Source of the DNA: Candidatus Ghiorseimicrobium undicola
GTDB taxonomy: Bacteria; Omnitrophota; Gorgyraeia; Ghiorseimicrobiales; Ghiorseimicrobiaceae
Assembly: GCA_002796125.1 (NCBI GenBank)
Contig: PCWA01000084.1
Location: 3,238 to 67,237 of the forward strand
DNA length: 64,000 bases
Direction: 5' to 3'
Shown here: positions 28,447-57,366 of the stretch, piece by piece
Layout of the letters: the number at the start of each line of letters is the position of its first letter
Numbering within the stretch: the first letter of the stretch is position 1
Position numbers and translations under genes: made by a program
Notes under the pieces: generated by a model
What the model was told of the DNA's origin: nothing
Database searches by the model: none
Seen by the model: the letters and a program-made list of their open reading frames with translations, nothing else

Positions 28447-28519
28447 AGCGGGAGACGGGCTTCGAACCCGCGACAACAACGTTGGCAACGTTGTGCTCTA
28501 CCAACTGAGCTACTCCCGC
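28447..28519 (-). tRNA. tRNA-Gly (anticodon GCC)
   Basis: Minus-strand GCGGGAGTAGCTCAGTTGGTAGAGCACAACGTTGCCAACGTTGTTGTCGCGGGTTCGAAGCCCGTCTCCCGCT. Cloverleaf with GTTCGAAG T-loop; no encoded CCA. Confidence 0.85.
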
Positions 28520-28631
28520 AAATTATTAAAAAGAGAAATTCTGACAAATCAAAAATTTATTGCCACCTAATTTCTAATCTCGATTTTCCAGTAAAATTCG
28601 CCTTAGATTCAATACAGCTTCAACCATCTAA

Positions 28632-28715
28632 TGCCGCGAGAGAGAGTTGAACTCTCAAGTCCTTGCGGACATTAGGTCCTAAGCCTAACGCGTATGCCAA
28701 TTCCGCCACCGCGGC
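28632..28715 (-). tRNA. tRNA-Leu (anticodon TAG), long variable arm
   Basis: Minus-strand GCCGCGGTGGCGGAATTGGCATACGCGTTAGGCTTAGGACCTAATGTCCGCAAGGACTTGAGAGTTCAACTCTCTCTCGCGGCA. The D-arm matches the canonical Leu GGCGGAATTGG; the ORF 28620..28808 is spurious. Confidence 0.8.
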
Positions 28716-28881
28716 AAATTTTTTAAAATCGCGTATGCCAATTCCGCCATCCGCCATTTTGTCAATAGCGCATAACGCATTGAAAATAGAAAATTGAGTA
28801 GACCGCAATTAAACTTATTATCTATTTTTTAATTTCTATTGCTCAATTGCTCTACAAATTTTTGCAGAGCAAAAATTTATG

Positions 28882-28954
28882 TGAGCCACCCGCGACTCGA
28901 ACGCGGCACACCCACCTTAAAAGGGTGGTGCTCTACCGGATGAGCTAGTGGCTC
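28882..28954 (-). tRNA. tRNA-Lys (anticodon TTT)
   Basis: Minus-strand GAGCCACTAGCTCATCCGGTAGAGCACCACCCTTTTAAGGTGGGTGTGCCGCGTTCGAGTCGCGGGTGGCTCA. Confidence 0.85.
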
Positions 28955-36042: not shown

Positions 36043-38076
36043 TCAATATTCTCTTAACCGGCGGTAAAAAGAAGATTTGGTATAAGAGGGGCAATTTTCA
36101 TCTGGATTATCATCGTAGTTATAATCGCGGTTATCATCCGCGTCAGGTAAAAGGCGCGATAAATCCGTATCCAGCTTAGAAAATACACTTGTAGGGGTTA
36201 AAAAGCGCGAAAGCTTATTAAAGGTGGATATGCCGTGGTTATGCGATTCGTTATGCATAGACAGGTAGAGATTTGTTTTTGCGCGCGTAACTGCCACATA
36301 AAGAAGCCGGCATTCTTCTTCAATCGCTTCTTCATCGTCTAAGGCATAGCTTACGGGCAGGCTGCCGTCACATAAACCTATAATAAAAACATTTTCCCAT
36401 TCCAAGCCCTTGGCAGAATGGATAGTGGATAAAACAACTGGCAGCTCATCATTGGCCTGCTTGGCGCCCATCTCAGACATTGAGCGCTGCGGCGGCTCAA
36501 GAGCGACAAAATCGGCCAGGAATTCCGAAAGATCTCTGTATTCTTCGGCTATCTGTGAAAGCACCTTTAAATCATCCGCCCTTCTCTGATAATCATCAAA
36601 CTTTTTTTTCATAAATGGATAATAGAAATCTACCGCCTCATCCACCATGTTAGAGACAGTCTTATCGGAACTGATAACGCCGATTAGGTCTAAGAGGCTT
36701 TTTAAATCAGAGTAAAATTTTTTCTTTTTAAAATATTCAAGGTCCGGATTAAGATTACCGCTCTTTAACAATTGTGCCAAAACTTTCTCCGCCGTAACAG
36801 GCCCAATACCTTCAAAAAACGATAAAACCCTGTGCCATGACAAATCATCGCGAAAATTGTAAGCTATCCTTAAAAAAGCCAAAGTATCCTTTACGTGCGC
36901 TGTTTCAATAAAGCGTATGCCGCCGTAAACTATAAAAGGTATATTTAATTTAGCCAGCTCCACCTGCAGCGGCAGTGATAAATGATTAGAGCGGTATAAT
37001 ACGCCGATTCTGTTTAAAGACATCCCCTCATCGTAAAGCTGTTTAATCCGACGGGCTACCCAAGAAGCCTCATCGTAGGCATCCCTGAAAAATAAAAGCT
37101 TCGGCTTATCCAACCCTTTACGTACAGCATAAAGAACCTTGGTATATTTTTGATGTTCTTCTTCTATTATACCGTTGGCAAGATCCAATATCGGCTGAGT
37201 AGAACGATAATTTTCCTCTAAAGTTATTATCTTGGTATGCCTAAACTGCTTGGGGAAATTAAACATATTTTTATAATACGCCCCCCTGAAGCTGTATATG
37301 CTCTGGGTGTCATCGCCCACCACTAAAACATTCTCGTGTTCTTTGGATAAAAGATATACGATTTCCCCCTGTATCTTATTTGTATCCTGAAATTCATCTA
37401 CCATTATGTATCTGTACTTAGAAGAAAGGTCCCGCCTTATAGTTTCTTCTTCCAGGGCAATTTTTAAATAGAGAAGCATGTCGTCATAATCAATCAGCCC
37501 CCGCTCTATTTTATATTTTATGTAGGCATCTTTTAATTCTTCGATATCCCTGTAAATATTTAAAAATTGCGCGTATTCCCGCTCGATAACTTCAAAGATT
37601 TTTTCCGACCGGTTAAATGACATGCTTATAATTGCCCGTAAAGTATCTTTTTTGGGGAAACGCTCTTTCTTGTCGCGGAAACCCAGCTTTGATGCCAGCA
37701 ACGACAACGCTTCCTCGGCATCCGACTCGTCAATAAAAGAAAATACCTTACTAAAGCCTAATTTTTTATGATAACGCTGTATTACTTTGTAAGCGAAAGA
37801 ATGGAAAGTCCCTCCATCTACTTTTTTACATTTTATATTATGCGTGGATGCGCGCTCAAGCATTGAGCGGGCGGCCTTACGAGTAAAGGTAAGAAGAAGA
37901 ATTTTTTCCGGCTCAACATTATTAAGCACTAAATTTAAAACACGGTATTCAATAACGCGCGTTTTACCCGTACCGGCGCCTGCAACCACCAAAACAGGGC
38001 CATCCAAAGTAGTCACCGCCTCTTTCTGCGCGTTATTTAAGGGCAATTCGTTTGTATTAATCAGGTCTCTTTTCAT
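36043..38076 (-). CDS. UvrD/PcrA/Rep-family ATP-dependent DNA helicase
   Basis: 677 aa; [10 protein letters not shown] Walker A, DEFQDTN motif II, VTRAK motif VI region. Confidence 0.8.
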   Translation of the reverse strand: MKRDLINTNELPLNNAQKEAVTTLDGPVLVVAGAGTGKTRVIEYRVLNLVLNNVEPEKILLLTFTRKAARSMLERASTHNIKCKKVDGGTFHSFAYKVIQRYHKKLGFSKVFSFIDESDAEEALSLLASKLGFRDKKERFPKKDTLRAIISMSFNRSEKIFEVIEREYAQFLNIYRDIEELKDAYIKYKIERGLIDYDDMLLYLKIALEEETIRRDLSSKYRYIMVDEFQDTNKIQGEIVYLLSKEHENVLVVGDDTQSIYSFRGAYYKNMFNFPKQFRHTKIITLEENYRSTQPILDLANGIIEEEHQKYTKVLYAVRKGLDKPKLLFFRDAYDEASWVARRIKQLYDEGMSLNRIGVLYRSNHLSLPLQVELAKLNIPFIVYGGIRFIETAHVKDTLAFLRIAYNFRDDLSWHRVLSFFEGIGPVTAEKVLAQLLKSGNLNPDLEYFKKKKFYSDLKSLLDLIGVISSDKTVSNMVDEAVDFYYPFMKKKFDDYQRRADDLKVLSQIAEEYRDLSEFLADFVALEPPQRSMSEMGAKQANDELPVVLSTIHSAKGLEWENVFIIGLCDGSLPVSYALDDEEAIEEECRLLYVAVTRAKTNLYLSMHNESHNHGISTFNKLSRFLTPTSVFSKLDTDLSRLLPDADDNRDYNYDDNPDENCPSYTKSSFYRRLREY

Positions 38077-38624
38077 GAATTTGAAGCCGCGTAGCGGGCA
38101 AGGGTATCTACTTCTATGTTTACGAATGAACCGGTATTTTTGTACTTAAGAATTGTATTTTTAAGAGTGTAGGGAATAATATATACGGAAAATACGCTTG
38201 TCCGAACCTCAACCACGGTGAGGCTTATGCCGTCAATGGCTATAGAGCCCTTGCGCGCGATATATTTGCTTAAACCTTTTGGGATAGTAATTTCAAAGCA
38301 TAAATTATTGCCGGTGAAGGTTTTCTTGCGGATTAAACCCTTTGCATCAATATGCCCCAAAACAAAATGGCCAGAGAGCCTATCGCCTATTTTCAACGAA
38401 CGCTCAAGGTTTACGGCATCGCTTATTCCCAGCTCCCCCAGATTGCTGACATCCATTGTCTCCTGCATAACTTCAAAAGATAAATAATCTTTATCTTTTT
38501 TAATTACGGTAAGGCAGGCGCCGTTTACGGCGATGCTATCCCCTGGCTTTGTATTTTCTAAGACGGCTTTAGCCGTTACTTCCAAAAGAGTAAAATCCCC
38601 TCTTCTGCTTATTTTCTTAACCAC
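38073..38624 (-). CDS. ribE: Riboflavin synthase alpha subunit
   Basis: 183 aa; two lumazine-binding repeats (SIAVNGACLTV, SIAIDGISLTV). Confidence 0.85.
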   Translation of the reverse strand: MVKKISRRGDFTLLEVTAKAVLENTKPGDSIAVNGACLTVIKKDKDYLSFEVMQETMDVSNLGELGISDAVNLERSLKIGDRLSGHFVLGHIDAKGLIRKKTFTGNNLCFEITIPKGLSKYIARKGSIAIDGISLTVVEVRTSVFSVYIIPYTLKNTILKYKNTGSFVNIEVDTLARYAASNS

Positions 38625-38638
38625 GCCTAATTCTTCGA

Positions 38639-39736
38639 TTATGCCGGTAAAAATTTTACATCTCCCTCTATTAATAAATCTTCTCCGATTTTTTTCGTTT
38701 CAATATTATTTAATTTTATAACTTCATCTATGCCGCCGACTCCTTTACCGGACACCGAACTAACCGCATTTTTTCCTCCGATAATTTTTGGAGCGGTAAA
38801 AAACATCGCGTAATCCACAAGCTTTTCGTCAAACAATGAGCCGATTAATTCTCCTCCGCCCTCAACCAATATCTTAGATATTTCTAGCGCCGCAAGCTCC
38901 CTCATCATCTGCCGCAGATGAACTTTTCCCGACTTTCGCTCTACGGTTATGACCTGCGCGCCTTTTTTTATTAATTTTACCGCTTTATTATCCGTTATTT
39001 TCTTAGCCGTTACAATAATTATTTTACCGTCAATAAAAATATTTGAATTAATTGGTATTTTAAGCTTGGTATCCGCGATTATTTTTATATTCTTGCTTGT
39101 ACCGGAAAGACGGGGGTTATCTTTTAAAATAGTATTAACCCCTACCATAATCGCGTCAAAATTGCTTCGCAATTTATGGGAAAAATCACGCGCGGGTTTC
39201 CCAGTAATCCATTGAGAATTAAAATTACGCGTAGCAATCTTTCCATCAAGGCTTTGGCCAGCCTTAACGCAAATATAAGGCATTTTTTGCCTGGTATATT
39301 TCATAAAAACTTTATTCATTTTCCGGCATTCAGTTTGGCGGATACCTGTTTTTACCTTAATCCCTGCCCTGCGCAATAAATTAATGCCTTTGCCGTTATT
39401 TAACGGATTCGGATCCCTCATCCCCACGATGACTTCTTTGACTCCGCTTTCTATAATCTTATCAGTACACGGCGGGGTTCGCCCAAAATGACTGCATGGT
39501 TCAAGGGTTATGTATAAAGTCGCGCCTTGTACCCGTCCGGCGGCTTTATTTAAAGCAACAATCTCCGCATGGGCTGCGCCTGTTTTTTTGTGAAAACCTG
39601 TAGCAATAATTTTATTGTTTTTTACGACGACTGCGCCGACATAAGGATTAGGGCGCGGATCTTTAGCTTTTAAGGCAAGGCTAAGCGCCTTACGCATATA
39701 AAATGAATCAGGCCCCTTTTTAACTGGGTTTAGCAT
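38639..39736 (-). CDS. ribD: Bifunctional diaminohydroxyphosphoribosylaminopyrimidine deaminase / 5-amino-6-(5-phosphoribosylamino)uracil reductase
   Basis: 365 aa; HAEIVAL and PCxxC CMP/dCMP-type deaminase zinc motifs; C-terminal RibD reductase domain. Confidence 0.9.
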   Translation of the reverse strand: MLNPVKKGPDSFYMRKALSLALKAKDPRPNPYVGAVVVKNNKIIATGFHKKTGAAHAEIVALNKAAGRVQGATLYITLEPCSHFGRTPPCTDKIIESGVKEVIVGMRDPNPLNNGKGINLLRRAGIKVKTGIRQTECRKMNKVFMKYTRQKMPYICVKAGQSLDGKIATRNFNSQWITGKPARDFSHKLRSNFDAIMVGVNTILKDNPRLSGTSKNIKIIADTKLKIPINSNIFIDGKIIIVTAKKITDNKAVKLIKKGAQVITVERKSGKVHLRQMMRELAALEISKILVEGGGELIGSLFDEKLVDYAMFFTAPKIIGGKNAVSSVSGKGVGGIDEVIKLNNIETKKIGEDLLIEGDVKFLPA

Positions 39737-40565
39737 CTTTTAATTGTTCAACCGTAGAATAGGGGACTTTTACTTTTCCTAATGGATTCTGCGGCTTAAT
39801 ACTACCGTGATAATCCGAACCGCCTGTTTTTATCAAACCGAATTTATCGGCTATTGCCCGGTAATGTTCAATGGCCGAAGGTGAATATTCAGGATAATAC
39901 ACCTCAAGCCCGCCTAATCCAAAGAGACTAAAATCACCTATTAAATCATCATTATTTAAAGTATGCGGATGGGCAAGCACCGGCACTCCTTTTGCTTCTA
40001 AAATCAATTCTATTGCGCCTTTAGGATCAAGTTTAAATCTGGATACGTAGGCAGGGCAATTTTCGCCTATATATTTATCAAAAGCTTCATAGAAACTGGA
40101 AACGTATCCTTGAGAATGCAATGCCCTTGCCAGATGCATCCTGCCAACAGTTGCCGCACCGGCTATCTCAAATACTTTATCGGCTTCAATAGGAATATTT
40201 AAAGAATTAAGTTTTTTTACCATTTCCAGCATCCGAACTACCCTGTCCTGGCGGATCTCTGCCAACTTATCTATAAGGTATCCGTTATTGTAATCAATAA
40301 AAAAACCTAAAATATGCACCTCGATATTATTTCCTTCGGCGCTTAGCTCCAAAGAAGGCACTATCTCAACACCGCTGGCGCCTGCCTCTTTCGTCACCGG
40401 TAACACTCCATCAACGGTATCATGGTCGCATATGGCTATAGCTGAAAGCCCGCAGGATTTAGCAACCTTTACTATCCTCTCGGGGGTATCAGTACCGTCG
40501 GAAAAAACAGTATGGGTATGAAGATCGGCGAATTTCAATCTGTTCTCGCTTTCCAAAGAGTTCAT
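39720..40565 (-). CDS. PHP-domain metal-dependent phosphoesterase embedded in the rib operon
   Basis: 281 aa; FADLHTHTVFSDGTD...ICDHDTVDG PHP motifs. Overlaps ribD by 17 nt and nusB by 4 nt. Confidence 0.7.
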   Translation of the reverse strand: MNSLESENRLKFADLHTHTVFSDGTDTPERIVKVAKSCGLSAIAICDHDTVDGVLPVTKEAGASGVEIVPSLELSAEGNNIEVHILGFFIDYNNGYLIDKLAEIRQDRVVRMLEMVKKLNSLNIPIEADKVFEIAGAATVGRMHLARALHSQGYVSSFYEAFDKYIGENCPAYVSRFKLDPKGAIELILEAKGVPVLAHPHTLNNDDLIGDFSLFGLGGLEVYYPEYSPSAIEHYRAIADKFGLIKTGGSDYHGSIKPQNPLGKVKVPYSTVEQLKDAKPS

Positions 40566-40981
40566 TTATCTTTAGGGGATTCTTTTTTAATCTTATCCAA
40601 AATGCCGTTAACGAACTTTCCGGAATCTTTATCACCGTACTTTTTGGCAAGCTCTATTGCTTCGTTTATGGAAACTTTGGGGGGGATATCTTCTAAAAAC
40701 AAAAGCTCAAAAGTAGCCAGGCGTAAAATATTTCTGTCAATTACCGCCATCCTGCTTATCTGCCAATTCTTGGCAAAAGATATGATTTTTGCATCTATCG
40801 CCTGTAAATTCTCAGCAACTCCTTTAACTAAAATATCTACAAAATCAACCAGGCTTTTATCGCTGTCGGCTTCAAAATTTAACCAGAAGCTATCAACTGC
40901 ATCCTTTAGGTTTTGCCCTGCTATATCAACCTGATAAAGAATCTTTAAGGCGCACTCACGCGCCTGAGTTCGCTTTCTCAA
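40562..40981 (-). CDS. nusB: Transcription antitermination factor NusB
   Basis: 139 aa; [20 protein letters not shown] NusB N-terminus. Confidence 0.85.
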
Positions 40982-41442
40982 ATCAACTCCATCACATTCG
41001 CCATTTCTATGGCATTAAGCGCGGCCTGCGCGCCTTTGTTGCCGTCTTTTGTACCGGCGCGTTCAATGGCCTGTTCAATGGTGTCGGCGGTAATTATGCC
41101 GAATGTAACCGGAAGGCCGCTGTTTAAAGAAACACTGGCTATCCCTTTGGTTGCTTCTGAAGCGATATATTCAAAATGCGGCGTCGCGCCTCTTATAACC
41201 GCCCCCAAACATATCAATGCATCAAATCCTTTTGATTTGGTTAATTTTGCCGCCGCCACAGGTATTTCAAAACAGCCCGGAACCCACACAACTTCAATGC
41301 CGGATTCTTTCGCGCCATGCCTTAAAAGCGTATCCAAACACCCGCTTAAAAGCTCCTTGGTAATAAAATCGTTAAAACGAGATATAACTATAGCAAATTT
41401 TTTATCTTTTGCCAATAGTTGTCCTGAAATTGTCTTTACCAT
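40978..41442 (-). CDS. ribH: 6,7-dimethyl-8-ribityllumazine synthase
   Basis: 154 aa; [14 protein letters not shown] and [15 protein letters not shown] motifs. Confidence 0.9.
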
Positions 41443-41509: not shown

Positions 41510-42703
41510 TCACAACAAATGCCCCAGCTTATCTTTCTTCGTCTGTAGGTACTTTTTATTTATCGGATTCGGCTTGATATCTATCGGCACCCTCTCTGCA
41601 ATTTTAATGCCGTATCCCTCCAGGCCGACTATCTTCCTGGGATTATTTGTCAGAAGCCGTACTTCATGTATGCCTAAATCTACCAGCATTTGAGCGCCTA
41701 TCCCATACTCGCGTAAATCAGCCGCCAAACCTAACGCGTAATTGGCATCTACCGTATCCAGCCCTTTGTCCTGCAAAGAATACGCGCGTATTTTATTTAC
41801 AAGGCCAATGCCTCTGCCTTCCTGGTTCATGTATAAAATAACGCCGCATCCTTCCGCGTTTATTTTCTGCATAGCATATTTCAACTGCAGGCCGCAGTCA
41901 CATCTTTGGGAAGCAAATACATCACCGGTAAGACACTGGGAATGTACCCTGACTAAAACTTTTTTATCTTTGACTTCTCCCATAACCAATGCCAGATGAT
42001 GGCTGTTATCGATCAGGGACTCATAAGCAACAAGTTTAAAATTACCGTATCCCGTAGGCAGAACGGTTTCAGCCGTATGCGCGATTAATTTTTCCGATTT
42101 TCTGCGGTATTCTATTAAAGAAGCGATGGTGCCGATTTTGAGATTAAATCTTTTGGCAAATTCTATTAATTGCGGTGTCCGCGCCATCGTGCCGTCATCA
42201 TTCATGATTTCGCATATTACCCCGGATGGATAGAGGCCGGCAAGCTTTGCCAGGTCCACGCTTGCCTCGGTATGGCCGGCCCTTACTAATACACCGCCCT
42301 TTCTTGCCTTTAAAGGAAAAAGATGCCCGGGACGTGATAAATCTTCCGGCTTTGTTTTAGGGTTGATTAAAGTTTGTATGGTTTTAGCCCGGTCGTATGC
42401 GGAAATCCCTGTGGTAATCCCGTGTTTGGCATCGGTCGAGATCATCCAGGCGGTTGAATATGCATCAGGAGCGTGGGAAGAAGAATGCATAGGGTGAAGA
42501 TTTAATTCATGTAATCGCTCTTCTTCCATGGCAATACAAATCAGGCCGCGGGCATGCTTAGTCATAAAATTAATGTCGTCCGGCCTGACTGAAGATGCCG
42601 CGATAATTAAATCTCCTTCATTTTCGCGGTCTTCATCATCAATAAGTACAGCCATCCCACCCTGTTTTATATCTTCTATTATTTCCGGAATAGCGTTAAG
42701 CAT
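41510..42703 (-). CDS. ribBA: Bifunctional 3,4-dihydroxy-2-butanone 4-phosphate synthase / GTP cyclohydrolase II
   Basis: 397 aa; N-terminal DHBP synthase (DREDENEGDL) and C-terminal GCHII with the CxC...C zinc site. Confidence 0.9.
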   Translation of the reverse strand: MLNAIPEIIEDIKQGGMAVLIDDEDRENEGDLIIAASSVRPDDINFMTKHARGLICIAMEEERLHELNLHPMHSSSHAPDAYSTAWMISTDAKHGITTGISAYDRAKTIQTLINPKTKPEDLSRPGHLFPLKARKGGVLVRAGHTEASVDLAKLAGLYPSGVICEIMNDDGTMARTPQLIEFAKRFNLKIGTIASLIEYRRKSEKLIAHTAETVLPTGYGNFKLVAYESLIDNSHHLALVMGEVKDKKVLVRVHSQCLTGDVFASQRCDCGLQLKYAMQKINAEGCGVILYMNQEGRGIGLVNKIRAYSLQDKGLDTVDANYALGLAADLREYGIGAQMLVDLGIHEVRLLTNNPRKIVGLEGYGIKIAERVPIDIKPNPINKKYLQTKKDKLGHLL

Positions 42704-42712
42704 AGTTTACCT

Positions 42713-42962
42713 CAAAAAAAAATCCCGAAGATTCTCTTCGGGATTAAACAAATAAAGCTCTCTAAAATATTCCTCTGGCTTATGCCAAACCGATGGCTTT
42801 ATCTTCTCTCATCTAGACTTTACTATTGGCTCTGGAATCGCACCAGCTCTGTCCTGCTTTTTTAGCAAGACTCGTAGGCTTTCATCCGGCGTTAAAGGAA
42901 GCGCCGATGTGCGCATGCTGCGCAACTACCAGTCGGGAATTACACCCTGCCCCGAAGATTCA
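42713..42962 (-). promoter_or_regulatory. FMN riboswitch (RFN element) with intrinsic terminator, controlling the ribBA operon
   Basis: The minus-strand leader reads ...TCTTCGGGGCAGGGTGTAATTCCCGACTGGTAGT...GCCAATAGTAAAGTCTAGATGAGAGAAGATAA, a match to the conserved FMN aptamer core. It is followed by the hairpin AATCCCGAAGAGAATCTTCGGGATT plus T9 (42713-42745), then GAGG and the ribBA ATG. Confidence 0.85.
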
Positions 42963-42965
42963 ATA

Positions 42966-42993
42966 ATTATACCGCAAATATAAAATTAGTCAA
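42966..42993 (-). promoter_or_regulatory. Sigma70 promoter of the riboflavin operon
   Basis: Minus-strand TTGACT-16 nt-TATAAT immediately upstream of the riboswitch 5' end. Confidence 0.55.
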
Positions 42994-43035: not shown

Positions 43036-43512
43036 ATGAAAGCAGAAAAGCAAATCGCGCAAATTATGACAAAAAGACAAAAAACCATTGCTGTGGCAGA
43101 ATCCTGTACCGGCGGGCTGCTCTCCGATTTCCTAACCAATATTCCGGGAAGCTCTAAATTTTTTTATCTAGGCATTACAGCATATAATAATAAATTTAAA
43201 ACATCGCTCTTGAGAGTGCCTTCAGGCACCCTTACAACTAAAGGTGCTGTATCCAAAGAAACAGCCACGGCTATGAGTAAAAATATCCGCGCTATTGCAG
43301 GCACCTCATTAGGCTTAAGCATTACCGGCATAGCAGGCCCGGCTGGCGCCAGCAAAACAAAACCAGTAGGGTTAGTATACATAAGCTTATCTTCGCAAAG
43401 TAAAAACATTTGCAAAAGGTTCCTCTTTAAGGGAAACAGAATTTCCATAAAAAAACAGGCGGCCTACGCCGCCCTAAATTTGCTATTAGCTGAAATCAAG
43501 CAATCCGTGTAA
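43036..43512 (+). CDS. CinA C-terminal domain protein (PncC-like nicotinamide-nucleotide amidohydrolase family)
   Basis: 158 aa; AVAESCTGGLLS motif of the CinA C-terminal domain. Confidence 0.75.
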   Translation: MKAEKQIAQIMTKRQKTIAVAESCTGGLLSDFLTNIPGSSKFFYLGITAYNNKFKTSLLRVPSGTLTTKGAVSKETATAMSKNIRAIAGTSLGLSITGIAGPAGASKTKPVGLVYISLSSQSKNICKRFLFKGNRISIKKQAAYAALNLLLAEIKQSV

Positions 43513-43544
43513 TCATTTTTAAAATCTGTGTAATCATATTTAAA

Positions 43545-44111
43545 ATGCGTACTTTTATCGCCATTGAACTTTCCAAAGAACTACAGAATAAACTTAACTT
43601 CTTGGAGGATAAGCTAAAGCATAACTCTGCCGATGTCAAATGGGTAAAACCTGAAAATATCCATCTTACCTTAAAATTCTTGGGGAACACCGGTGAAGAA
43701 AAATTAGAACCCATTAAAAAAATACTTGATAATTTAGCGGTAAGATTTAAAAAATTTAGCCTAGAAATATCCGGCTTGGGGGCCTTCCCCGGTTTAAAAT
43801 CTCCTCGCGTAATCTGGATAGGATCAAATGTTATAAATGATAATCAGAATATTATCTTAAATATGGTTAAAATACTAGATGAGGAATTAGAAAAATTGGG
43901 CTTTCCCAAAGAAAAAAAACGTTTTCATGCGCATGCCACTATAGGAAGGGTGCGCTCATCAAAAAACATGCAAATATTAAAGGAAAGCCTTGAGAAAAAT
44001 ATTAAATTTAAGGCGGGAATCTTGGAAGCAAATAAAATCTCTCTTATTCAAAGCACCCTTACGCCTTCGGGATCAATCTATACCCCTATCCATACCGTAA
44101 AATTAACCTAA
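43545..44111 (+). CDS. thpR: RNA 2',3'-cyclic phosphodiesterase (2H family, LigT/ThpR)
   Basis: 188 aa; two HxT/S motifs (HLTLKFLG and HAHATIGRV). Confidence 0.8.
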   Translation: MRTFIAIELSKELQNKLNFLEDKLKHNSADVKWVKPENIHLTLKFLGNTGEEKLEPIKKILDNLAVRFKKFSLEISGLGAFPGLKSPRVIWIGSNVINDNQNIILNMVKILDEELEKLGFPKEKKRFHAHATIGRVRSSKNMQILKESLEKNIKFKAGILEANKISLIQSTLTPSGSIYTPIHTVKLT

Positions 44112-44561
44112 AATATTTGCTGCCGATAGCAGCTGTAAAATAACATTCGTATATAGGGCGGCAAGCACGTCATCCAAAACGACACCCGCGCTGCCTCCCA
44201 AAGCTTCGACTTTTCTCATCGGCCATACCTTTACTATATCAAAAAACCTGAAGAGAATAAATCCTGAAACAACATAAGCCCATTTAAAAGGCAGAAACAT
44301 AAATGCAATAAACATCCCCGCCATTTCATCCAGGACTATATGCGAAGAATCTTTTTTGCCTAACAGCTTCTCGGCTTTGCCGGAAACCAAAAAAGCCGCC
44401 AGTAGAAAAAGTAATGTTGCAAGAATGTAGCATAAATAATTGCCGCGGATAAAAAGATAAATTATTAAAGCAACGATGCTTGCCGCAGTCCCCGAAGCCG
44501 GTAAATGCCCCAGGCCGAAAAAAATCGCCGAGTATTTAATCAGTTTTTCTTTGGAATTCAT
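44103..44561 (-). CDS. pgpA: Phosphatidylglycerophosphatase A
   Basis: 152 aa membrane protein of the PgpA family. Confidence 0.7.
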   Translation of the reverse strand: MNSKEKLIKYSAIFFGLGHLPASGTAASIVALIIYLFIRGNYLCYILATLLFLLAAFLVSGKAEKLLGKKDSSHIVLDEMAGMFIAFMFLPFKWAYVVSGFILFRFFDIVKVWPMRKVEALGGSAGVVLDDVLAALYTNVILQLLSAANILG

Positions 44562-45154
44562 TATAATTTCATGAGGTTTTTATTTCTTGAAATAAAAGAC
44601 AACCCGGAAATCACTGTCAAGCTGAGAGTAATACCCATAAGAATAGTTATGCCGCAATAGCTGTAAAACTCTATATCATTATTCCATGCTGAATGTTCCA
44701 GCATAAGCTCTTTAGCTATCAAAAATAACAATATTACAAATATTGTCACCATCTGGGAAACCGTTTTGTATTTACCGGCTTCTTCGGCGGCAAGCACCCT
44801 GCCTTGTTTTAAGGCAATGAGCCGGAATCCGGTAATAAATGACTCCCTTGCGACAATAATTATAACCATCCATGCCGGTATGAGCTGCATCCCCACAAAA
44901 GCCATAAAAGCGCCCAGCACCAATATCTTATCCGCGATTGGATCCATGAGCTTTCCGAAATCCGAAACTATATTGTATTTTCTGGCAAGCCTGCCGTCGT
45001 AGAGATCAGTCAAAGAAGCCAAGGTGAATAATAAAAACGCGCTAATTCTGGGGAGCAAACCCTCCAGAAAAAGAAATATCATAAAAATAAAAGTGAGTAT
45101 TATTCTTAAAGTCGTCAACTGATTAGGAAGCCGCTTTTTCTCCCACAAGGTCAT
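44561..45154 (-). CDS. pgsA: CDP-diacylglycerol-glycerol-3-phosphate 3-phosphatidyltransferase (CDP-alcohol phosphatidyltransferase)
   Basis: 197 aa; LPNQLTTLRI N-terminus and DGxxAR...G...D...D CDP-OH transferase motif (DLYDGRLAR...DPIADK). Confidence 0.75.
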   Translation of the reverse strand: MTLWEKKRLPNQLTTLRIILTFIFMIFLFLEGLLPRISAFLLFTLASLTDLYDGRLARKYNIVSDFGKLMDPIADKILVLGAFMAFVGMQLIPAWMVIIIVARESFITGFRLIALKQGRVLAAEEAGKYKTVSQMVTIFVILLFLIAKELMLEHSAWNNDIEFYSYCGITILMGITLSLTVISGLSFISRNKNLMKL

Positions 45155-51900: not shown

Positions 51901-54831
51901 CTAACGGCTAACCCTGATTATTGCCGAAGGACATATTTGGTTATAAGCGCAATAACTGCATGTCAAATATTTTGGCTTGGCGGTAAAATCAACCCCGCGT
52001 ATGCCGCCGGCCGCCTCTTTTATTATATCTATTGTTTTTTCAAGGTCTTCGTCTGTCTTTTTCGCGCGCCCTATCAGGGCTGATTCCAGAAAATATAATT
52101 CTACGGCTTGAGGAAGTACGCCGTTAATACTTTTATACGCTAAAGCATAAATAGAAAGCTGAAGGCTTTCTTTTGCTTTTTTATCCGCGTCTTTCTGTTT
52201 TTTGACTTCCGAGGTTTTAAAATCAATAATTACCGCTTCGCCTGTTTCCAGGATATCAACCCTATCCCACCTGCCGTTTACTTTGTTATTATCTACAAAA
52301 AACGAAAATTCCTTTTCCATATAAGTTGGTAATATTGTTTTTTTAGATTCCTGGCTAAAAAACCTCCTGAGGGCAAGATATGCCGAGTTTCTTCGTTCTT
52401 CTATATGCTTACGGGAAAAAAATCCTTCCGGCCTGAAAGCGTTATCGAAAATATTCAACAAATCGCTTTCGGTTATTGCTATGTTATTAGACCTTGACTG
52501 ATAATATCTAAGCACGGCATCATGCATGGCTTTTCCGTAAAGTACCGTGTGATGCTCCATTATTGGCACGCGTAAAATATGCACGTATTTATATTTCAAG
52601 GGGCAACTCATGTAATCATCTATCTGGTAATAGCTTAAATTAAGAATTGCTTCTTTTCTTACGGCTTTCGCCAAGGGAAGCGGCTTTATTCTCGCTAAAG
52701 GAGCATTGCGCTTTATCGCTTCAAGTGAAGATGCCTTTTTAACCTCTATTTTAGCTTTCTCTTCTGTGCCTAATGCCTCAAAAATAAACCGGCTTATTTT
52801 TCTCGTCTTTTTACCGCCGTAGTCCTGGCTTGAGGTAAGGAATAATTCTTTCCTTGCCCGGGTCATGCCGACATAAAAAAGCCTGCGTTCTTCCTGAGCA
52901 TGAAAGTCGCCGCTAGGTAATATATCCTTGATTAATTCATCCGGTAATTCTATTGTCTGCGCCCGCTTCGGCCAAGGGAAACGCCCCTGCACCAGGCCCA
53001 CCATAAATACTACGTTAAATTCCAGGCCCTTTGCCTTGTGCACAGTTAAAACCGCTACCGCCGGTACATCCAAATCCGGCTCGGCCATCGCCGGGTCATC
53101 TCCCACCTCCATCAGTAAACTCAAGTGCTCGACGAAATTAACCACCCTGTCTTCCCGGGTTAATATTTCGTAGTTGCTTACGATATCGAAAAATTTGGCA
53201 ATATTACTGATTTTTTCCTCATTTTCTAAACTGGGATTTTTGGTAAGCGAAGAGATAAAACCGGTTTGCGTAAGAAATAAATAAAGCAGGCGCCCGGTAG
53301 GCATATTCTTTGAATGTTCAAGATATCTTTCTATGTCCTGCATGAACTTATTTATCGTTTCTTTTGTCTGATTGCTTAAGCCGTTGAATTGTTCATTTCC
53401 CAAATCATAGCGTAATGCCGCAAATAACGATATATTCTTACGTTTTGCATAATGCATCAGCAGGCTTAAATCCGCCATATCCACAGAATAAATTTCTGAA
53501 CTTAGAAGATAATACAAGCTTAAACTATCCTCTATATTGGCTGTTAACTTCAGAAAAGATATGCAAAGGCGTATTTCCTTGCGGGAATAAAGCCCCTGAC
53601 TGCCGCTAAAACGCCATGGAACACCCAGCATATTTAAAGATCTTAAAAATGGATCGGCATCGCTATTAGAGCGTACAAGTATGGCAAAATCCGAATATTT
53701 ATATTTTTTCTTTTCCGATTTTTCTTTTATTAATCTCGCCACATAATCAGCTTCTGATGAAAGCGTATCAAAGTTAAAATGTTCTACCGCTTTTCCTTTT
53801 TTCGCCAGCCCTATCAGGCGCTTATTTATATCGCTCTGCACCTCAAAACGGTCGGGATTATTGTGCTGAATAAGCTGATAGGCCGAATCAAGAATTTTCT
53901 GTGTCGAGCGGTAATTTTTTATTAAGGTAATTTTCTCTGATTCTGGGTATGTTTTGATAAAATTAATTATATTGCTGTAGGCAGCGCCCCGGAAGCGATA
54001 AATGCATTGGTCATCGTCTGCAACGACGGTAATATTTTTCGCTTCCCCGGCTAATAATTCCAGCATTTTAAACTGCGCGAAATTTGTATCCTGAAATTCA
54101 TCGATTAATATATATTTAAACTTGTCACGGTAGCGCCCCAAAACAGACGGGCGTTTTCTTAAAAGCTCCAAGGCCATATAAAACTGGTTACCGAAATCAA
54201 TTTTTCCTTCCTGTATTAATAATTCCTGGTATTTTTTGAAACATGAAGAAAGTTCTGTGTGCTTAAGCGCTTCTTCTCTTAATATACCGTCATTTGATTC
54301 ACCGGCTTTTTCGCGCAGGCGCGCCGTATAAGCCGTATATTCATCCACGGAAATATCTTCATCCTTTAGCCGGCTGAAATAAGTTAAAATCGCCTCAATA
54401 AACTTGGTGGGATTACCCAGCGGCCGAAAATAAGAAATATCGAACTCGAAAAGATGTTCTCTGAAAAATATAGCCGCCTCCGGCCGCGTTAACACCTTAA
54501 AATCAGGGCTAAGACCCAATGTTAGAGCGTTATCCCGCAAAATCCTGTCGCCGAAAGAATGAAAAGTAGATATCCAGATATCGGTATAGCCGTAAGGAAC
54601 AAGTAAATCCACCCTTTCTTCCATTTCATTGGCTGCTTTATCCGTAAAAGTAAGGGCCAGAATTTCATCTTGCCGTGTTTTTTCCCTATCCAGAAGATAA
54701 GCAATTCTTCGCGTAATAACCGAGGTTTTGCCTGTGCCGGCCCCAGCGATTATCAAAAGAGGGCCTTTATCATGTGTAACCGCCTGTTTTTGCTGGGGAT
54801 TTAAACCTTTAAGAATATCTGCCATAATCAA
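51901..54831 (-). CDS. UvrD-family helicase fused to a C-terminal PD-(D/E)XK (RecB/Cas4-like, Fe-S) nuclease domain (AddA-like)
   Basis: 976 aa; [10 protein letters not shown] Walker A and DEFQDTN, then a nuclease domain ending with the Cys cluster [10 protein letters not shown]. Confidence 0.75.
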
Positions 54832-55656: not shown

Positions 55657-57366
55657 TTAGATAGACGGCTTAATGCTGACTAATTTAAGCTGTATGGCAC
55701 GCCTATCATCGCAAGATATCCCGTTGGCACGCATCCCCCAGGAATCTATAGACGGGGTATAGGCCAAATCTAATCTTTCGGAATTTTCCACAAGATCAGC
55801 CATATTGCTCATTCCAAACCCAACTACCGGATAGGTAATTTTACCGTCAGAGGCCCAAAATTTGATTGTACCCTTGCCTAAAATTTTCGGCCTGCCCTTA
55901 ACAATAAGATTACAGGAAGAAAATACCGGCAGGGGATTTCCTCTGCCAAAGGGCATAAGGCCTTCGAGAGCGGATACAAATTTAAAATCTAATTCCTCCA
56001 AACCGAGTTCTGCTTCAATATCTAAAACCGGAACCATCTCGCAGGAAGCCAGTTCTTCTCTGGCTATTTTATTTATTGCCAGGCGGAATTTATCAATATT
56101 TTCTTTTGATATTGTAAGCCCCGCGGCATAAGCATGCCCGCCGTAAAACTCAAGCATATCCTCGCATCTTGATAGAGCGTTTAATATATGAAAATCCCTG
56201 ATAGAACGCGCTGAACCCTTACCCAATGCATCATTGGTTGAAATAATTATTGTCGGCCGGTAAAACCTGTCGCTTATCCGCGATGCTACTATACCCAAAA
56301 CCCCTTCATGCCAGCCCTGATTATCTAAAACTATAACCGTATGTTCTTTAAAATTTATTTCTCTTTGCGCCTTGGCCAGCGCCTCCTCCAATATGCCGGA
56401 TTCTATTGCCTGGCGCTTTTTATTTTCATTATGCAGCCTGACCGCCAGGCCTTCAGCCTGAGAATGAGAAGAGCTAAACAAAAGTTCAAAAGACATATCC
56501 GCTGAGTTCACCCTTCCTGCGGCATTCAATCTCGGCCCTAACATAAAACCTATCATATGCGTATTTATATCTTTGCCTTTAAGCCCGCAAACCTTAATTA
56601 ATTCTTTTATACCCGGCCTCTTAGCCCGGCTTAATATGCCAAGCCCTTCTTTTACGAATATCCTGTTTTCATCTATCAGCGGTACAACATCACAAACCGT
56701 TCCCAGAGAAACCAGGTCTAAATCATCAACAAGATTATCGGCACATAAAAGCCGGCATAACTTATATACCACCCCTACCGCCGCCAGTTCCTTAAATGGA
56801 TAAAGAGAATTCTTTATTTTGGGATTAACTATTATCTTGGCCTTAGGTAAAGTATCCAGCGGTTCGTGATGATCCACGATCATTGTATCTACTCCCAGAT
56901 GATTAAGCATTTCTATCTCGGAAAAATCAGTCATGCCGCAATCAAGGCTCACAAACAAATCTGCTCCCTGCTCTTTGGCTAAAGATACCGCCTCCTTATT
57001 TATCCCGTATCCGTCTTTTACGCGGTGCGGGATATAATGTGTTGGCTCTAATCCAAGCCGCTTAAGAACAGACTTAAAAAGTACACAGGAAGTCACCCCG
57101 TCAACATCATAATCACCGGATATAAATACCTTCTCTTTTTTTGCGGCTGCTTCTTTTAGGCGCCGCACCGCTTTTTCCATGCCGGGGATAAGTAAAGGAT
57201 CATGCATGTCGCTCATTTTAGGCTTTAGAAAAATCTCCGCCTCTTTTACGTTGGTTATGCCCCGATTAATAAACACCTGGGCTAAAACAGGAGAAATATT
57301 CAAAGAATCAGCAAGTGCCTGCCGTAGCAAAAAATCCGGCTTAGCTATGTTCCATTTTTTTTGCAT
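55657..57366 (-). CDS. recJ: Single-stranded-DNA-specific exonuclease RecJ
   Basis: 569 aa; DHH (DYDVDGVTS...DHH) and DHHA1 domains. Confidence 0.9.
   Translation of the reverse strand: MQKKWNIAKPDFLLRQALADSLNISPVLAQVFINRGITNVKEAEIFLKPKMSDMHDPLLIPGMEKAVRRLKEAAAKKEKVFISGDYDVDGVTSCVLFKSVLKRLGLEPTHYIPHRVKDGYGINKEAVSLAKEQGADLFVSLDCGMTDFSEIEMLNHLGVDTMIVDHHEPLDTLPKAKIIVNPKIKNSLYPFKELAAVGVVYKLCRLLCADNLVDDLDLVSLGTVCDVVPLIDENRIFVKEGLGILSRAKRPGIKELIKVCGLKGKDINTHMIGFMLGPRLNAAGRVNSADMSFELLFSSSHSQAEGLAVRLHNENKKRQAIESGILEEALAKAQREINFKEHTVIVLDNQGWHEGVLGIVASRISDRFYRPTIIISTNDALGKGSARSIRDFHILNALSRCEDMLEFYGGHAYAAGLTISKENIDKFRLAINKIAREELASCEMVPVLDIEAELGLEELDFKFVSALEGLMPFGRGNPLPVFSSCNLIVKGRPKILGKGTIKFWASDGKITYPVVGFGMSNMADLVENSERLDLAYTPSIDSWGMRANGISCDDRRAIQLKLVSIKPSI

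What the first reader, a model, noticed from the sequence alone, without database searches (positions are those of the whole stretch)
39720..40565. PHP-family phosphoesterase translationally coupled inside the riboflavin operon: candidate for the missing ARPP phosphatase step
The operon ribBA-ribH-nusB-PHP-ribD-ribE lies behind one FMN riboswitch. The PHP gene overlaps both neighbours (17 nt with ribD, 4 nt with nusB), so it is co-regulated by FMN. Riboflavin synthesis needs dephosphorylation of 5-amino-6-ribitylamino-pyrimidinedione 5'-phosphate. The known enzymes for that step are HAD-family proteins and are not conserved across bacteria. A metal-dependent PHP phosphatase under riboswitch control is a plausible non-orthologous replacement.
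Basis: inference. Interest (0 to 1): 0.55.

Follow-up and report, generated by a model that had tools for sequence, protein, structure and literature searches.

The report
Nucleotide-type PHP phosphoesterase inside riboflavin operon
A metal-dependent phosphoesterase gene really does sit inside an FMN-riboswitch riboflavin operon and recurs next to riboflavin genes in other bacteria, but its active site matches enzymes that act on nucleotides and short RNA, so its proposed role as the missing riboflavin phosphatase is unproven though testable.

Summary
On the minus strand a promoter-like site, an FMN riboswitch and a terminator hairpin precede ribBA-ribH-nusB-PHP-ribD-ribE. A UvrD-like helicase is also coupled to ribE. 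The window is from a Candidatus Omnitrophica MAG.

The 281-aa protein belongs to the COG0613 TrpH/YciV family (RNase AM, Cv1693 pAp phosphatase, B. adolescentis BAD_1165), with TM 0.85-0.87 to all three. It is not a histidinol-phosphatase-type PHP.

All nine metal ligands, the 5'-phosphate-binding Arg triad (R108, R111, R142) and the stacking Phe162 are invariant in 101 subfamily members, whether linked to rib genes or not. No substitution is shared by the rib-linked clades.

The rib context does recur. The same operon appears in 17 Omnitrophota-type loci, 9 of 10 with the riboswitch. A Verrucomicrobiia MAG has ribBA-ribH-nusB-PHP. An Ignavibacteria-type clade has PHP immediately upstream of ribH. 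RibH is the only neighbour shared across clades.

Best reading (about 0.5): a family-typical 5'-phosphate-anchored 3'-phosphoesterase (pAp phosphatase or 5'-3' nanoRNase), carried in the operon as nusB is. ARPP phosphatase remains possible (about 0.25). No paper in the searched library links this family to riboflavin genes.

The parts
42966..42993 (-). Promoter-like site (TTGACT-16 nt-TATAAT, 11 of 12) directly upstream of the riboswitch
   Evidence: This is a consensus match only.
42797..42963 (-). FMN riboswitch aptamer (RFN element)
   Evidence: RF00050, 95.6 bits (gathering score 66.2), E 8.6e-21, full model 1-138.
42721..42745 (-). Terminator-like hairpin (11 pairs, then a T-run) between the aptamer and ribBA. 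Probably the expression platform of a transcription-attenuating riboswitch.
   Evidence: Its role as expression platform is inferred from position.
41510..42703 (-). ribBA (bifunctional DHBP synthase / GTP cyclohydrolase II)
   Evidence: PF00926 plus PF00925; NF006803 603 bits (cut-off 569).
40978..41442 (-). ribH (lumazine synthase)
   Evidence: PF00885; TIGR00114 182 bits.
40562..40981 (-). nusB (transcription antitermination factor). Overlaps ribH by 4 nt.
   Evidence: PF01029; TIGR01951 151 bits (cut-off 88).
39720..40565 (-). PHP phosphoesterase of the COG0613 TrpH/YciV family (281 aa). An alternative TTG start at 40538 would give 272 aa.
38639..39736 (-). ribD (deaminase/reductase). Overlaps the PHP gene by 17 nt.
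   Evidence: TIGR00326 349 bits (cut-off 156).
38073..38624 (-). ribE (riboflavin synthase)
   Evidence: PF00677; NF006767 200 bits (cut-off 155).
36043..38076 (-). UvrD/PcrA-like SF1 helicase. Overlaps ribE by 4 nt and is the last gene of the co-directional run, before convergent lpxB.
   Evidence: Same position in L001 and L007. Other Omnitrophota loci have a tRNA after ribE instead.

Best explanation
The gene encodes a trinuclear-metal phosphoesterase of the TrpH/YciV (RNase AM) / Cv1693 family.

Proposed mechanism:
- A (beta/alpha)7 PHP barrel holds three metal ions on nine His/Asp/Glu ligands.
- A helical insertion domain contributes an arginine triad (R108, R111, R142) that buries the 5'-phosphate of a nucleotide. 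Phe162 stacks on the base.
- The phosphoester on the 3' side is then presented to the metals and hydrolysed.

The expected reactions are pAp (or pNp) to NMP plus phosphate, and stepwise 5'-to-3' removal of nucleotides from short 5'-phosphorylated RNA. These are housekeeping reactions of nucleotide and RNA turnover, possibly including rRNA 5'-end trimming, which would suit its neighbour nusB.

On this reading the gene is a passenger in the operon, as nusB and the helicase are. It is co-transcribed with rib genes in Omnitrophota because it sits in the old ribH-nusB housekeeping block, not because it acts in riboflavin synthesis.

Shown: fold, ligands, pocket residues, gene order and its conservation. 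Inferred: substrate, co-transcription, passenger status.
For: Family assignment:
- Best NCBIfam models are 3',5'-nucleoside bisphosphate phosphatase (155.5 bits) and RNase RNM (137.5 bits).
- Best PDB sequence matches are 3e0f, 7ug9 (RNase AM), 9etk and 2yb1 (Cv1693).
- The AlphaFold model (pLDDT 94.7) gives full-length TM 0.85-0.87 to 3e0f/3o0f, 9etk and 2yb1 (the last solved with Mn, AMP and phosphate). HisJ/HisK-type histidinol phosphatases reach only TM 0.28-0.35.

Residues:
- RNase AM metal ligands H13, H15, D20, H45, E72, H83, H198, D255, H257 correspond to query H16, H18, D23, H48, E73, H84, H199, D251, H253.
- The 5'-phosphate cavity R107/R110/R141 and stacking F161 (PMC9410882) correspond to R108/R111/R142/F162.
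- All of these are invariant in 17 rib-operon, 14 Ignavibacteria-type and 70 other subfamily sequences.
- The only T1-specific change at an otherwise conserved site is P143 to L/M/V. None is shared with the second rib-linked clade.

Passenger precedent:
- nusB (and nrdR, thiL, pgpA) are known non-riboflavin genes in rib operons (PMC5312566).
- Here nusB and a helicase are embedded by the same overlaps.
- pgsA-pgpA lie just upstream, as pgpA does near nusB in V. cholerae.

Most subfamily members are not rib-linked: 40 of the 67 loci with enough flank to judge sit in diverse contexts.
Against: - RibH is the only neighbour shared by separate clades of this subfamily.
- In the Ignavibacteria-type clade PHP is directly upstream of ribH without nusB, so a link to nusB alone does not explain the pattern.
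- By a rough estimate, chance adjacency to ribH in two or three of about 28 independent contexts is unlikely (expected about 0.05).
- The gene lies between ribH-nusB and ribD-ribE, so riboswitch-controlled transcripts must cross it to reach ribD and ribE. This order has been kept down to 41% protein identity.
- RNase AM R201, which contacts the scissile phosphate, is replaced here (HPHT). The scores are far below both NCBIfam equivalog cut-offs, so this is a distinct, uncharacterised subfamily.
- At least one such genome (L106) also has an NrnA-like DHH/DHHA1 gene that could cover pAp and nanoRNA turnover.
Confidence: 0.5

Rival explanations
1. ARPP phosphatase. The PHP enzyme removes the 5'-phosphate of 5-amino-6-ribitylamino-2,4-pyrimidinedione 5'-phosphate made by RibD and hands the product to RibH. 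It would do so either as its main job or as a second activity of a broader phosphatase. A wider version would have it act on GTP-derived, ring-opened ribose 5'-phosphates in general, including dihydroneopterin monophosphate.
For: - The recurrent context is centred on the enzyme that consumes the dephosphorylated product.
  - ribBA-ribH-nusB-PHP-ribD-ribE occurs in 17 loci of one clade. An FMN riboswitch is present in 9 of the 10 related loci where the upstream region was searched, and in the window.
  - ribBA-ribH-nusB-PHP occurs in a Verrucomicrobiia MAG (L013).
  - PHP directly upstream of ribH occurs in 9 loci of a separate clade, with gaps of 12 to 185 nt and no nusB.
  - RibH is the top cross-clade neighbour.
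- The step has no universal enzyme, and three unrelated folds are already known to do it (PMC12051542, PMC13151069).
- The PHP superfamily includes true phosphomonoesterases.
- In another clade the PHP gene is translationally coupled to a FolB-containing gene. FolB is the consumer of another orphan dephosphorylation step.
- L106 carries an NrnA-like gene that could cover the nucleotide role.
Against: - The nucleotide 5'-phosphate anchor (R108/R111/R142) and the stacking Phe are invariant in rib-linked and unlinked members alike. No specialising substitution is shared by the rib-linked clades.
- Characterised relatives cleave the 3'-side ester while holding the 5'-phosphate (PMC9410882). ARPP has only the 5'-type phosphate and no second anionic group.
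- The fold is far from HisJ-type monoesterases.
- No riboswitch was found at any of the eight PHP-ribH loci searched.
- Five of 14 members of that clade lack a detectable ribH next door (four with adequate flank, one on a short contig), while 12 loci of the clade keep a Crp-family regulator upstream.
- The same operon logic would make nusB and the helicase riboflavin genes.
Confidence: 0.25
2. Flavin-nucleotide-related nuclease. Like E. coli RNase AM, the enzyme would remove FAD caps from RNA (releasing intact FAD) or otherwise hydrolyse flavin dinucleotides. That would tie it to flavin economy when the riboswitch is open.
For: - E. coli RNase AM, from the same family, binds FAD and degrades FAD-capped but not NAD-capped RNA in vitro and in cells, releasing intact FAD (PMC9410882).
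- The gene lies in an FMN-controlled operon.
- In L009 the run is PHP, ribH, then an Old Yellow Enzyme-type flavoprotein.
Against: - The amount of FAD on RNA caps is small (stated in PMC9410882), so the physiological gain is doubtful.
- In RNase AM, deFADding could not be separated from ordinary 5'-phosphate RNA decay.
- Most subfamily members are not near flavin genes.
Confidence: 0.07
3. Other substrate class of the same fold. In the Ignavibacteria-type clade the most conserved neighbour is a cNMP-binding Crp-family regulator, and one family model is a ribose 1,2-cyclic phosphate diphosphodiesterase. A cyclic-phosphate or cyclic-nucleotide phosphodiesterase role is therefore conceivable.
For: - Crp-family gene directly upstream in 12 loci.
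- NF041661 (cyclic phosphate dihydrolase) matches at 117 bits.
Against: - The score is far below the cut-off of 500.
- The Crp link is confined to one clade.
- There is no such regulator in the window's operon.
Confidence: 0.05

Closest known systems
Cv1693 of Chromobacterium violaceum (PDB 2yb1), a 3',5'-nucleoside bisphosphate phosphatase of the PHP/amidohydrolase superfamily
   Same: - Two-domain fold: TM 0.85, 28% identity.
- All metal ligands, the Arg triad for the 5'-phosphate and the stacking Phe are shared.
- Best-scoring NCBIfam model.
   Different: - 155.5 bits against a cut-off of 400.
- The HPGR arginine next to the scissile phosphate is replaced (HPHT).
- The loop after that motif is shorter, and there is an extra conserved C-terminal helix (G263...V272...L275).
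- The genomic context differs.
RNase AM (YciV/TrpH) of E. coli, V. cholerae and P. aeruginosa (PDB 7ug9, 9etk), a 5'-to-3' exoribonuclease, diribonuclease and deFADding enzyme
   Same: - Same family and active-site residues: TM 0.86 to 9etk, rmsd 1.7.
- Its rRNA 5'-end maturation role (PMC7261194) would fit a gene next to nusB.
   Different: - 137.5 bits against a cut-off of 375, and 23-29% identity.
- R201 is absent.
- Proteobacterial yciV clusters with yciO (bioRxiv 10.1101/2023.12.18.571875), not with rib genes.
BAD_1165 of Bifidobacterium adolescentis (PDB 3e0f/3o0f), a PHP phosphoesterase of undefined physiological substrate
   Same: - Closest solved relative: E 1.7e-33, 32-33% identity, TM 0.85-0.87.
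- It also lacks the HPGR arginine.
   Different: - It branches outside the subfamily that contains the window protein.
- The paper describing it is not in the library, so its substrates could not be checked here.
Known ARPP phosphatases: HAD enzymes (YigB, YbjI, YcsE, YwtE, YitU, PyrP2) and the Aquifex histidine-family phosphatase and IMPase
   Same: Only the proposed reaction and, for this gene, the physical link to rib genes.
   Different: - Unrelated folds.
- Per the 2026 review (PMC13151069), even in B. subtilis the ARPP phosphatase lies outside the rib operon.
rib operons that carry nusB (E. coli, V. cholerae: nrdR-ribD-ribE-ribA-ribH-nusB-thiL-pgpA)
   Same: ribH-nusB adjacency with unrelated housekeeping genes in the same transcript, and pgpA nearby (PMC5312566).
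   Different: - Those operons lack an FMN riboswitch. Only 5 of 651 riboswitch-bearing units held nusB (PMC5312566).
- Here a riboswitch precedes an operon in which nusB and PHP lie between ribH and ribD.

Membership tests
COG0613 TrpH/YciV/Cv1693 PHP phosphoesterases | PHP (beta/alpha)7 barrel with nine ligands for a trinuclear metal centre | tested here: met
   H16, H18, D23, H48, E73, H84, H199, D251, H253 align with the RNase AM ligands and are invariant. PF02811 scores 44 bits.
COG0613 TrpH/YciV/Cv1693 PHP phosphoesterases | Helical insertion domain carrying the 5'-phosphate-binding Arg triad and a base-stacking Phe | tested here: met
   R108, R111, R142 and F162 correspond to R107, R110, R141 and F161 of RNase AM (PMC9410882). 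They are invariant in 101 sequences. Helices 95-166 are modelled at high confidence.
COG0613 TrpH/YciV/Cv1693 PHP phosphoesterases | Full-length structural similarity to solved members | tested here: met
   TM 0.85-0.87 to 3e0f, 3o0f, 9etk and 2yb1.
RNase AM / Cv1693 equivalogs (NF047791, NF041577) | Score above the NCBIfam equivalog cut-off | tested here: not met
   137.5 against 375, and 155.5 against 400.
RNase AM / Cv1693 equivalogs (NF047791, NF041577) | HPGR arginine (RNase AM R201) contacting the scissile phosphate | tested here: not met
   The query has HPHT. Omnitrophota relatives have HP[HYF]x, and the Ignavibacteria-type clade has HPGY.
RNase AM / Cv1693 equivalogs (NF047791, NF041577) | Hydrolysis of pAp or 5'-phosphorylated oligoribonucleotides | not testable with these tools
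   Needs an enzyme assay.
ARPP (ARAPDP) phosphatase, defined by function | Dephosphorylates ARPP and supports riboflavin formation with RibBA, RibD, RibH and RibE | not testable with these tools
   An assay exists (PMC12051542).
ARPP (ARAPDP) phosphatase, defined by function | Recurrent genomic association with riboflavin genes across lineages | tested here: met
   - 17 loci with nusB-PHP-ribD, one with ribBA-ribH-nusB-PHP, and 9 with PHP upstream of ribH, in separate clades.
- 40 of the 67 loci with adequate flank have no rib neighbour.
ARPP (ARAPDP) phosphatase, defined by function | Absence of another ARPP phosphatase (HAD, histidine-family) in the genome | tested here: inconclusive
   - A motif scan of the window's 57 ORFs found no HAD or RHG signature.
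- Pfam on ten mid-size or unassigned ORFs also found none.
- However, 64 kb is a small part of the genome.
HisJ/HisK-type histidinol phosphate phosphatase (PHP monoesterases) | Sequence and fold similarity to HisJ/HisK | tested here: not met
   NF004981 scores 31.6 bits (cut-off 117), over residues 14-49 only. TM is 0.35 to 2yxo and 0.28 to 4gyf.
FMN riboswitch (RF00050) | Full-length aptamer above the gathering score, followed by an expression platform upstream of rib genes | tested here: met
   - 95.6 bits against 66.2, model positions 1-138.
- Terminator hairpin at 42745..42721 before ribBA.
- Orthologous aptamers in 9 of 10 related operons.

The most novel reading that the evidence does not exclude
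This widespread, uncharacterised branch of the TrpH-type PHP phosphoesterases would be the dedicated phosphatase of riboflavin synthesis (ARPP to ARP, 'RibZ') in Omnitrophota, Ignavibacteria-type bacteria and some Verrucomicrobia. More broadly, it could be a phosphatase for GTP-derived intermediates that also serves the orphan dihydroneopterin-monophosphate step upstream of FolB. That would make it the first such enzyme encoded inside an FMN-riboswitch rib operon, and a fourth unrelated fold for the step.
Probability: 0.22. Interest if true: 0.75.

Novelty: new member of a known kind. Interest (0 to 1): 0.42.

Why it matters
The dephosphorylation of ARPP is the one riboflavin step without a dedicated, conserved enzyme. 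It is still an active topic: a 2025 JBC paper on Aquifex and a 2026 review (PMC12051542, PMC13151069).

A phosphoesterase conserved inside riboswitch-controlled rib operons, and independently next to lumazine synthase in another phylum, is a concrete and cheap candidate to test with an existing one-pot assay.

If it fails the test, the locus is still useful for three reasons:
- It is a warning that operon membership, even behind a riboswitch, is weak evidence in the ribH-nusB block.
- It is a rare case of nusB, a nuclease-type phosphoesterase and a helicase placed behind an FMN riboswitch.
- It defines an uncharacterised subfamily of RNase AM relatives common in uncultured phyla that probably lack oligoribonuclease.

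Tried and rejected
- **HisJ-like monoesterase.** Rejected: weak N-terminal-only sequence match and TM no higher than 0.35.
- **Specialised rib-linked paralogue.** I looked for substitutions that separate rib-linked from unlinked sequences. There is one T1-specific site (143), three T2-specific sites (174, 196, 275), and none shared. I therefore dropped the idea of a shared neofunctionalised paralogue.
- **Association only through nusB.** Not sufficient, because the Ignavibacteria-type loci have PHP directly upstream of ribH with no nusB.
- **Riboswitch at PHP-ribH loci.** None found in the eight loci searched.
- **HAD or histidine-phosphatase genes in the window.** None seen by motif scan of the 57 ORFs or by Pfam on ten mid-size or unassigned ORFs. 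Uninformative for the genome as a whole.
- **Literature.** Searches for PHP or COG0613 together with riboflavin, ARPP or lumazine synthase found nothing relevant. The primary papers on Cv1693, TrpH and BAD_1165 are not held, so their substrate screens are cited only through PMC9410882 or from memory.
- **Structure job with locus-derived sequences.** Redone with database homologues.
- **Whole-genome questions.** A second COG0613 copy, CysQ, or a phylogenetic profile against the rib pathway could not be addressed.
Full report
**1. What is there**

The window matches a Candidatus Omnitrophica MAG (CG11_big_fil_rev_8_21_14_0_20_42_13). The 281-aa product of 40565..39720 is identical to its annotated 'phosphatase'.

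On the minus strand the ORFs run as follows:
- ribBA 42703..41510
- ribH 41442..40978
- nusB 40981..40562
- PHP 40565..39720
- ribD 39736..38639
- ribE 38624..38073
- a UvrD/PcrA-like helicase 38076..36043

All are identified by Pfam and NCBIfam.

Rfam finds a single, full-length FMN riboswitch aptamer at 42963..42797 (95.6 bits; gathering score 66.2). A TTGACT-16-TATAAT match lies just upstream (42993..42966). An 11-bp hairpin with a T-run (42745..42721) lies between the aptamer and ribBA. That is the usual layout of a transcription-attenuating riboswitch.

ribH/nusB and ribE/helicase also overlap by 4 nt.
- Homologues almost all begin MKFADLH, which is window residue 10, a TTG at 40538. AlphaFold finds residues 1-7 disordered. 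The nusB/PHP overlap may really be a 24-nt gap.

**2. What the protein is**

It is not a generic PHP protein.
- The best NCBIfam models are 3',5'-nucleoside bisphosphate phosphatase (155.5 bits) and RNase RNM/AM (137.5 bits). Both are far below their equivalog cut-offs.
- The best solved relatives by sequence are BAD_1165 of B. adolescentis (3e0f), E. coli RNase AM (7ug9), V. cholerae RNase AM (9etk) and Cv1693 (2yb1).
- A high-confidence model (pLDDT 94.7, pTM 0.91) superposes over its full length on 3e0f/3o0f, 9etk and 2yb1 with TM 0.85-0.87. Histidinol phosphate phosphatases of the same superfamily reach only 0.28-0.35.

The RNase AM structure paper (PMC9410882) names three sets of residues:
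- the metal ligands;
- a buried positively charged cavity (R107, R110, R141) that holds the 5'-phosphate of the first nucleotide;
- F161, which stacks on its base.

All have exact counterparts here (R108, R111, R142, F162, plus nine ligands). They are invariant in every one of 101 subfamily sequences I aligned. One feature is missing: the arginine of the HPGR motif (R201), which touches the scissile phosphate, is HPHT here.

The protein thus belongs to a distinct, uncharacterised branch of COG0613. That branch is widespread in Omnitrophota, Ignavibacteria-type, Wallbacteria, Nitrospinota and other uncultured lineages.

**3. Is the rib context recurrent?**

I examined 25 genome loci, 80 metagenome loci and one long Omnitrophota contig.
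- **Omnitrophota type.** The order nusB-PHP-ribD (with ribBA-ribH upstream and ribE downstream where the contig allows) occurs in 17 loci besides the window. PHP identity falls as low as 41%. In a neighbour-joining tree these form one clade. Nine of the ten that include the upstream region carry the FMN riboswitch.
- **Verrucomicrobiia.** One MAG (L013) has ribBA-ribH-nusB-PHP and then a convergent gene.
- **Ignavibacteria type.** In a separate clade the order is Crp-family regulator, PHP, ribH. There is no nusB, the gaps are 12-185 nt, and no riboswitch was found. Nine of 14 clade members have ribH there. Twelve loci of the clade keep the Crp gene.

When all genes within three positions of PHP are clustered, RibH is the only neighbour shared by separate clades.

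The other contexts are unrelated to one another: NadA-DUF523-PHP-TPR-PilZ, a Ser/Thr kinase, SpoVS, a sugar nucleotidyltransferase and lpxB, and so on. Of the 67 loci with enough flank to judge, 40 have no rib neighbour.

A rough estimate puts chance proximity to ribH across about 28 independent contexts at about 0.05 events. Two or three events were seen. This estimate is my inference, not a formal test.

**4. Why I do not adopt the ARPP reading as the best explanation**

Four points weigh against it.
1. The enzymes this protein resembles hold the nucleotide 5'-phosphate in the arginine cavity and cut the ester on the 3' side. ARPP has only the 5'-type phosphate. By analogy with AMP in the Cv1693 complex it would bind as a product analogue, with its phosphate away from the metals.
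2. The cavity is invariant in rib-linked and unlinked members alike, and no substitution is shared by the two rib-linked clades. The rib-linked genes look like plain orthologues doing whatever the subfamily does everywhere.
3. Operon membership is weak evidence in this particular block.
   - nusB, nrdR, thiL and pgpA are classic non-riboflavin passengers of rib operons (PMC5312566).
   - Here nusB and a helicase are embedded by the same overlaps.
   - pgsA-pgpA lie just upstream.
   - A family member that trims rRNA 5' ends (PMC7261194) next to the rRNA antitermination factor NusB is at least as coherent a pairing.
4. 'Co-regulated by FMN' is not established. NusB is a general transcription factor, so I infer that such genes need riboswitch-independent expression. 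PMC5312566 found nusB in only 5 of 651 riboswitch-bearing units. The promoter-like matches inside the operon are no more frequent than in shuffled sequence.

**5. Why I do not dismiss it either**

- The convergence on ribH in an unrelated phylum, without nusB, is not explained by the passenger model.
- The step is known to be filled by unrelated folds: HAD enzymes, a histidine-family phosphatase and an IMPase (PMC12051542, PMC13151069).
- No paper in the library connects PHP/COG0613 with riboflavin genes.
- An Omnitrophota genome with the same operon also has an NrnA-like DHH/DHHA1 gene that could cover pAp and nanoRNA turnover.
- In yet another clade the PHP gene is translationally coupled to a FolB-containing gene. 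FolB, like RibH, consumes the product of an orphan dephosphorylation of a GTP-derived intermediate.
- E. coli RNase AM binds FAD and removes FAD caps (PMC9410882). So a flavin connection for the family exists, although its physiological weight is small.

**6. Verdict**

| Reading | Probability |
|---|---|
| Family-typical, 5'-phosphate-anchored 3'-phosphoesterase (pAp phosphatase / 5'-3' nanoRNase, possibly rRNA 5'-end trimming), carried in the ribH-nusB block | about 0.5 |
| ARPP phosphatase, alone or as a second activity | about 0.25 |
| Flavin-nucleotide or FAD-cap role | about 0.07 |
| Other phosphodiesterase role | about 0.05 |
| Unassigned | remainder |

The protein is a new member of a known family in an unusual, conserved context. 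The functional claim is open and can be tested directly with a published assay. Interest is moderate: the candidate addresses a real gap, but the active-site evidence points away from it.

Noticed in passing
window 36043-38076 (-), junction with ribE at 38073-38076: A 677-aa UvrD/PcrA-like helicase overlaps ribE by 4 nt, so it is as tightly coupled to the rib operon as the PHP gene. The same holds in L001 and L007. More distant Omnitrophota operons end with a tRNA after ribE instead.
   Followed up: partly
window 40562-40981 with riboswitch 42797-42963: nusB lies behind an FMN riboswitch. This is reported as rare (5 of 651 riboswitch-bearing transcription units, PMC5312566), yet it is conserved across Omnitrophota loci. 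It raises the question of how NusB is expressed when FMN is plentiful.
   Followed up: partly
L098 4007-5802; also L104, L092, L052: In another clade of the same PHP subfamily, the gene is overlapped at its start (4 nt) by a FolB (dihydroneopterin aldolase) plus methyltransferase fusion, with a MoaC-like ORF nearby. FolB also uses the product of an orphan phosphatase step on a GTP-derived intermediate.
   Followed up: no
L005, L006, L009, L012, L017, L020, L021, L053, L061, L067, L094, L096 (gene at position -1 of PHP): A cNMP-binding Crp/Fnr-family regulator sits directly upstream of PHP in 12 Ignavibacteria-type loci. It is more constant than the ribH gene downstream.
   Followed up: no
L106 19508-20482: An Omnitrophota contig with the same rib-nusB-PHP operon carries a 324-aa DHH/DHHA1 (NrnA-like) gene next to rbfA. 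This is a second candidate for pAp and nanoRNA turnover.
   Followed up: no
window 40538 (TTG) versus 40565 (ATG): The PHP start codon is uncertain. Homologues begin at the residue encoded by the TTG, a GGAAAGCGAG stretch precedes it, and residues 1-7 are predicted disordered.
   Followed up: partly
window 43036-45154: Upstream of the riboswitch lie a divergent CinA-domain gene and a LigT/ThpR-type 2',3'-cyclic phosphodiesterase, then pgpA and pgsA on the operon strand. This block is syntenic in Omnitrophota loci. The nearness of pgpA to the rib-nusB block recalls the enterobacterial nusB-thiL-pgpA arrangement.
   Followed up: partly
window 41387-41415 (-): A promoter-like match with an extended -10 (TTGGCA-17-TATAGT, TG) lies inside ribH, upstream of nusB. 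It is a possible riboswitch-independent promoter, but such matches are no more frequent here than in shuffled sequence.
   Followed up: no
window 28447-28954 (-): Three tRNA genes in a cluster.
   Followed up: no
window 51901-54831 (-) and 55657-57366 (-): A second, 976-aa ORF has a UvrD-like N-terminal Walker A region, and a 569-aa ORF resembles RecJ. Both were judged from the N-terminal sequence only and were not scanned.
   Followed up: no
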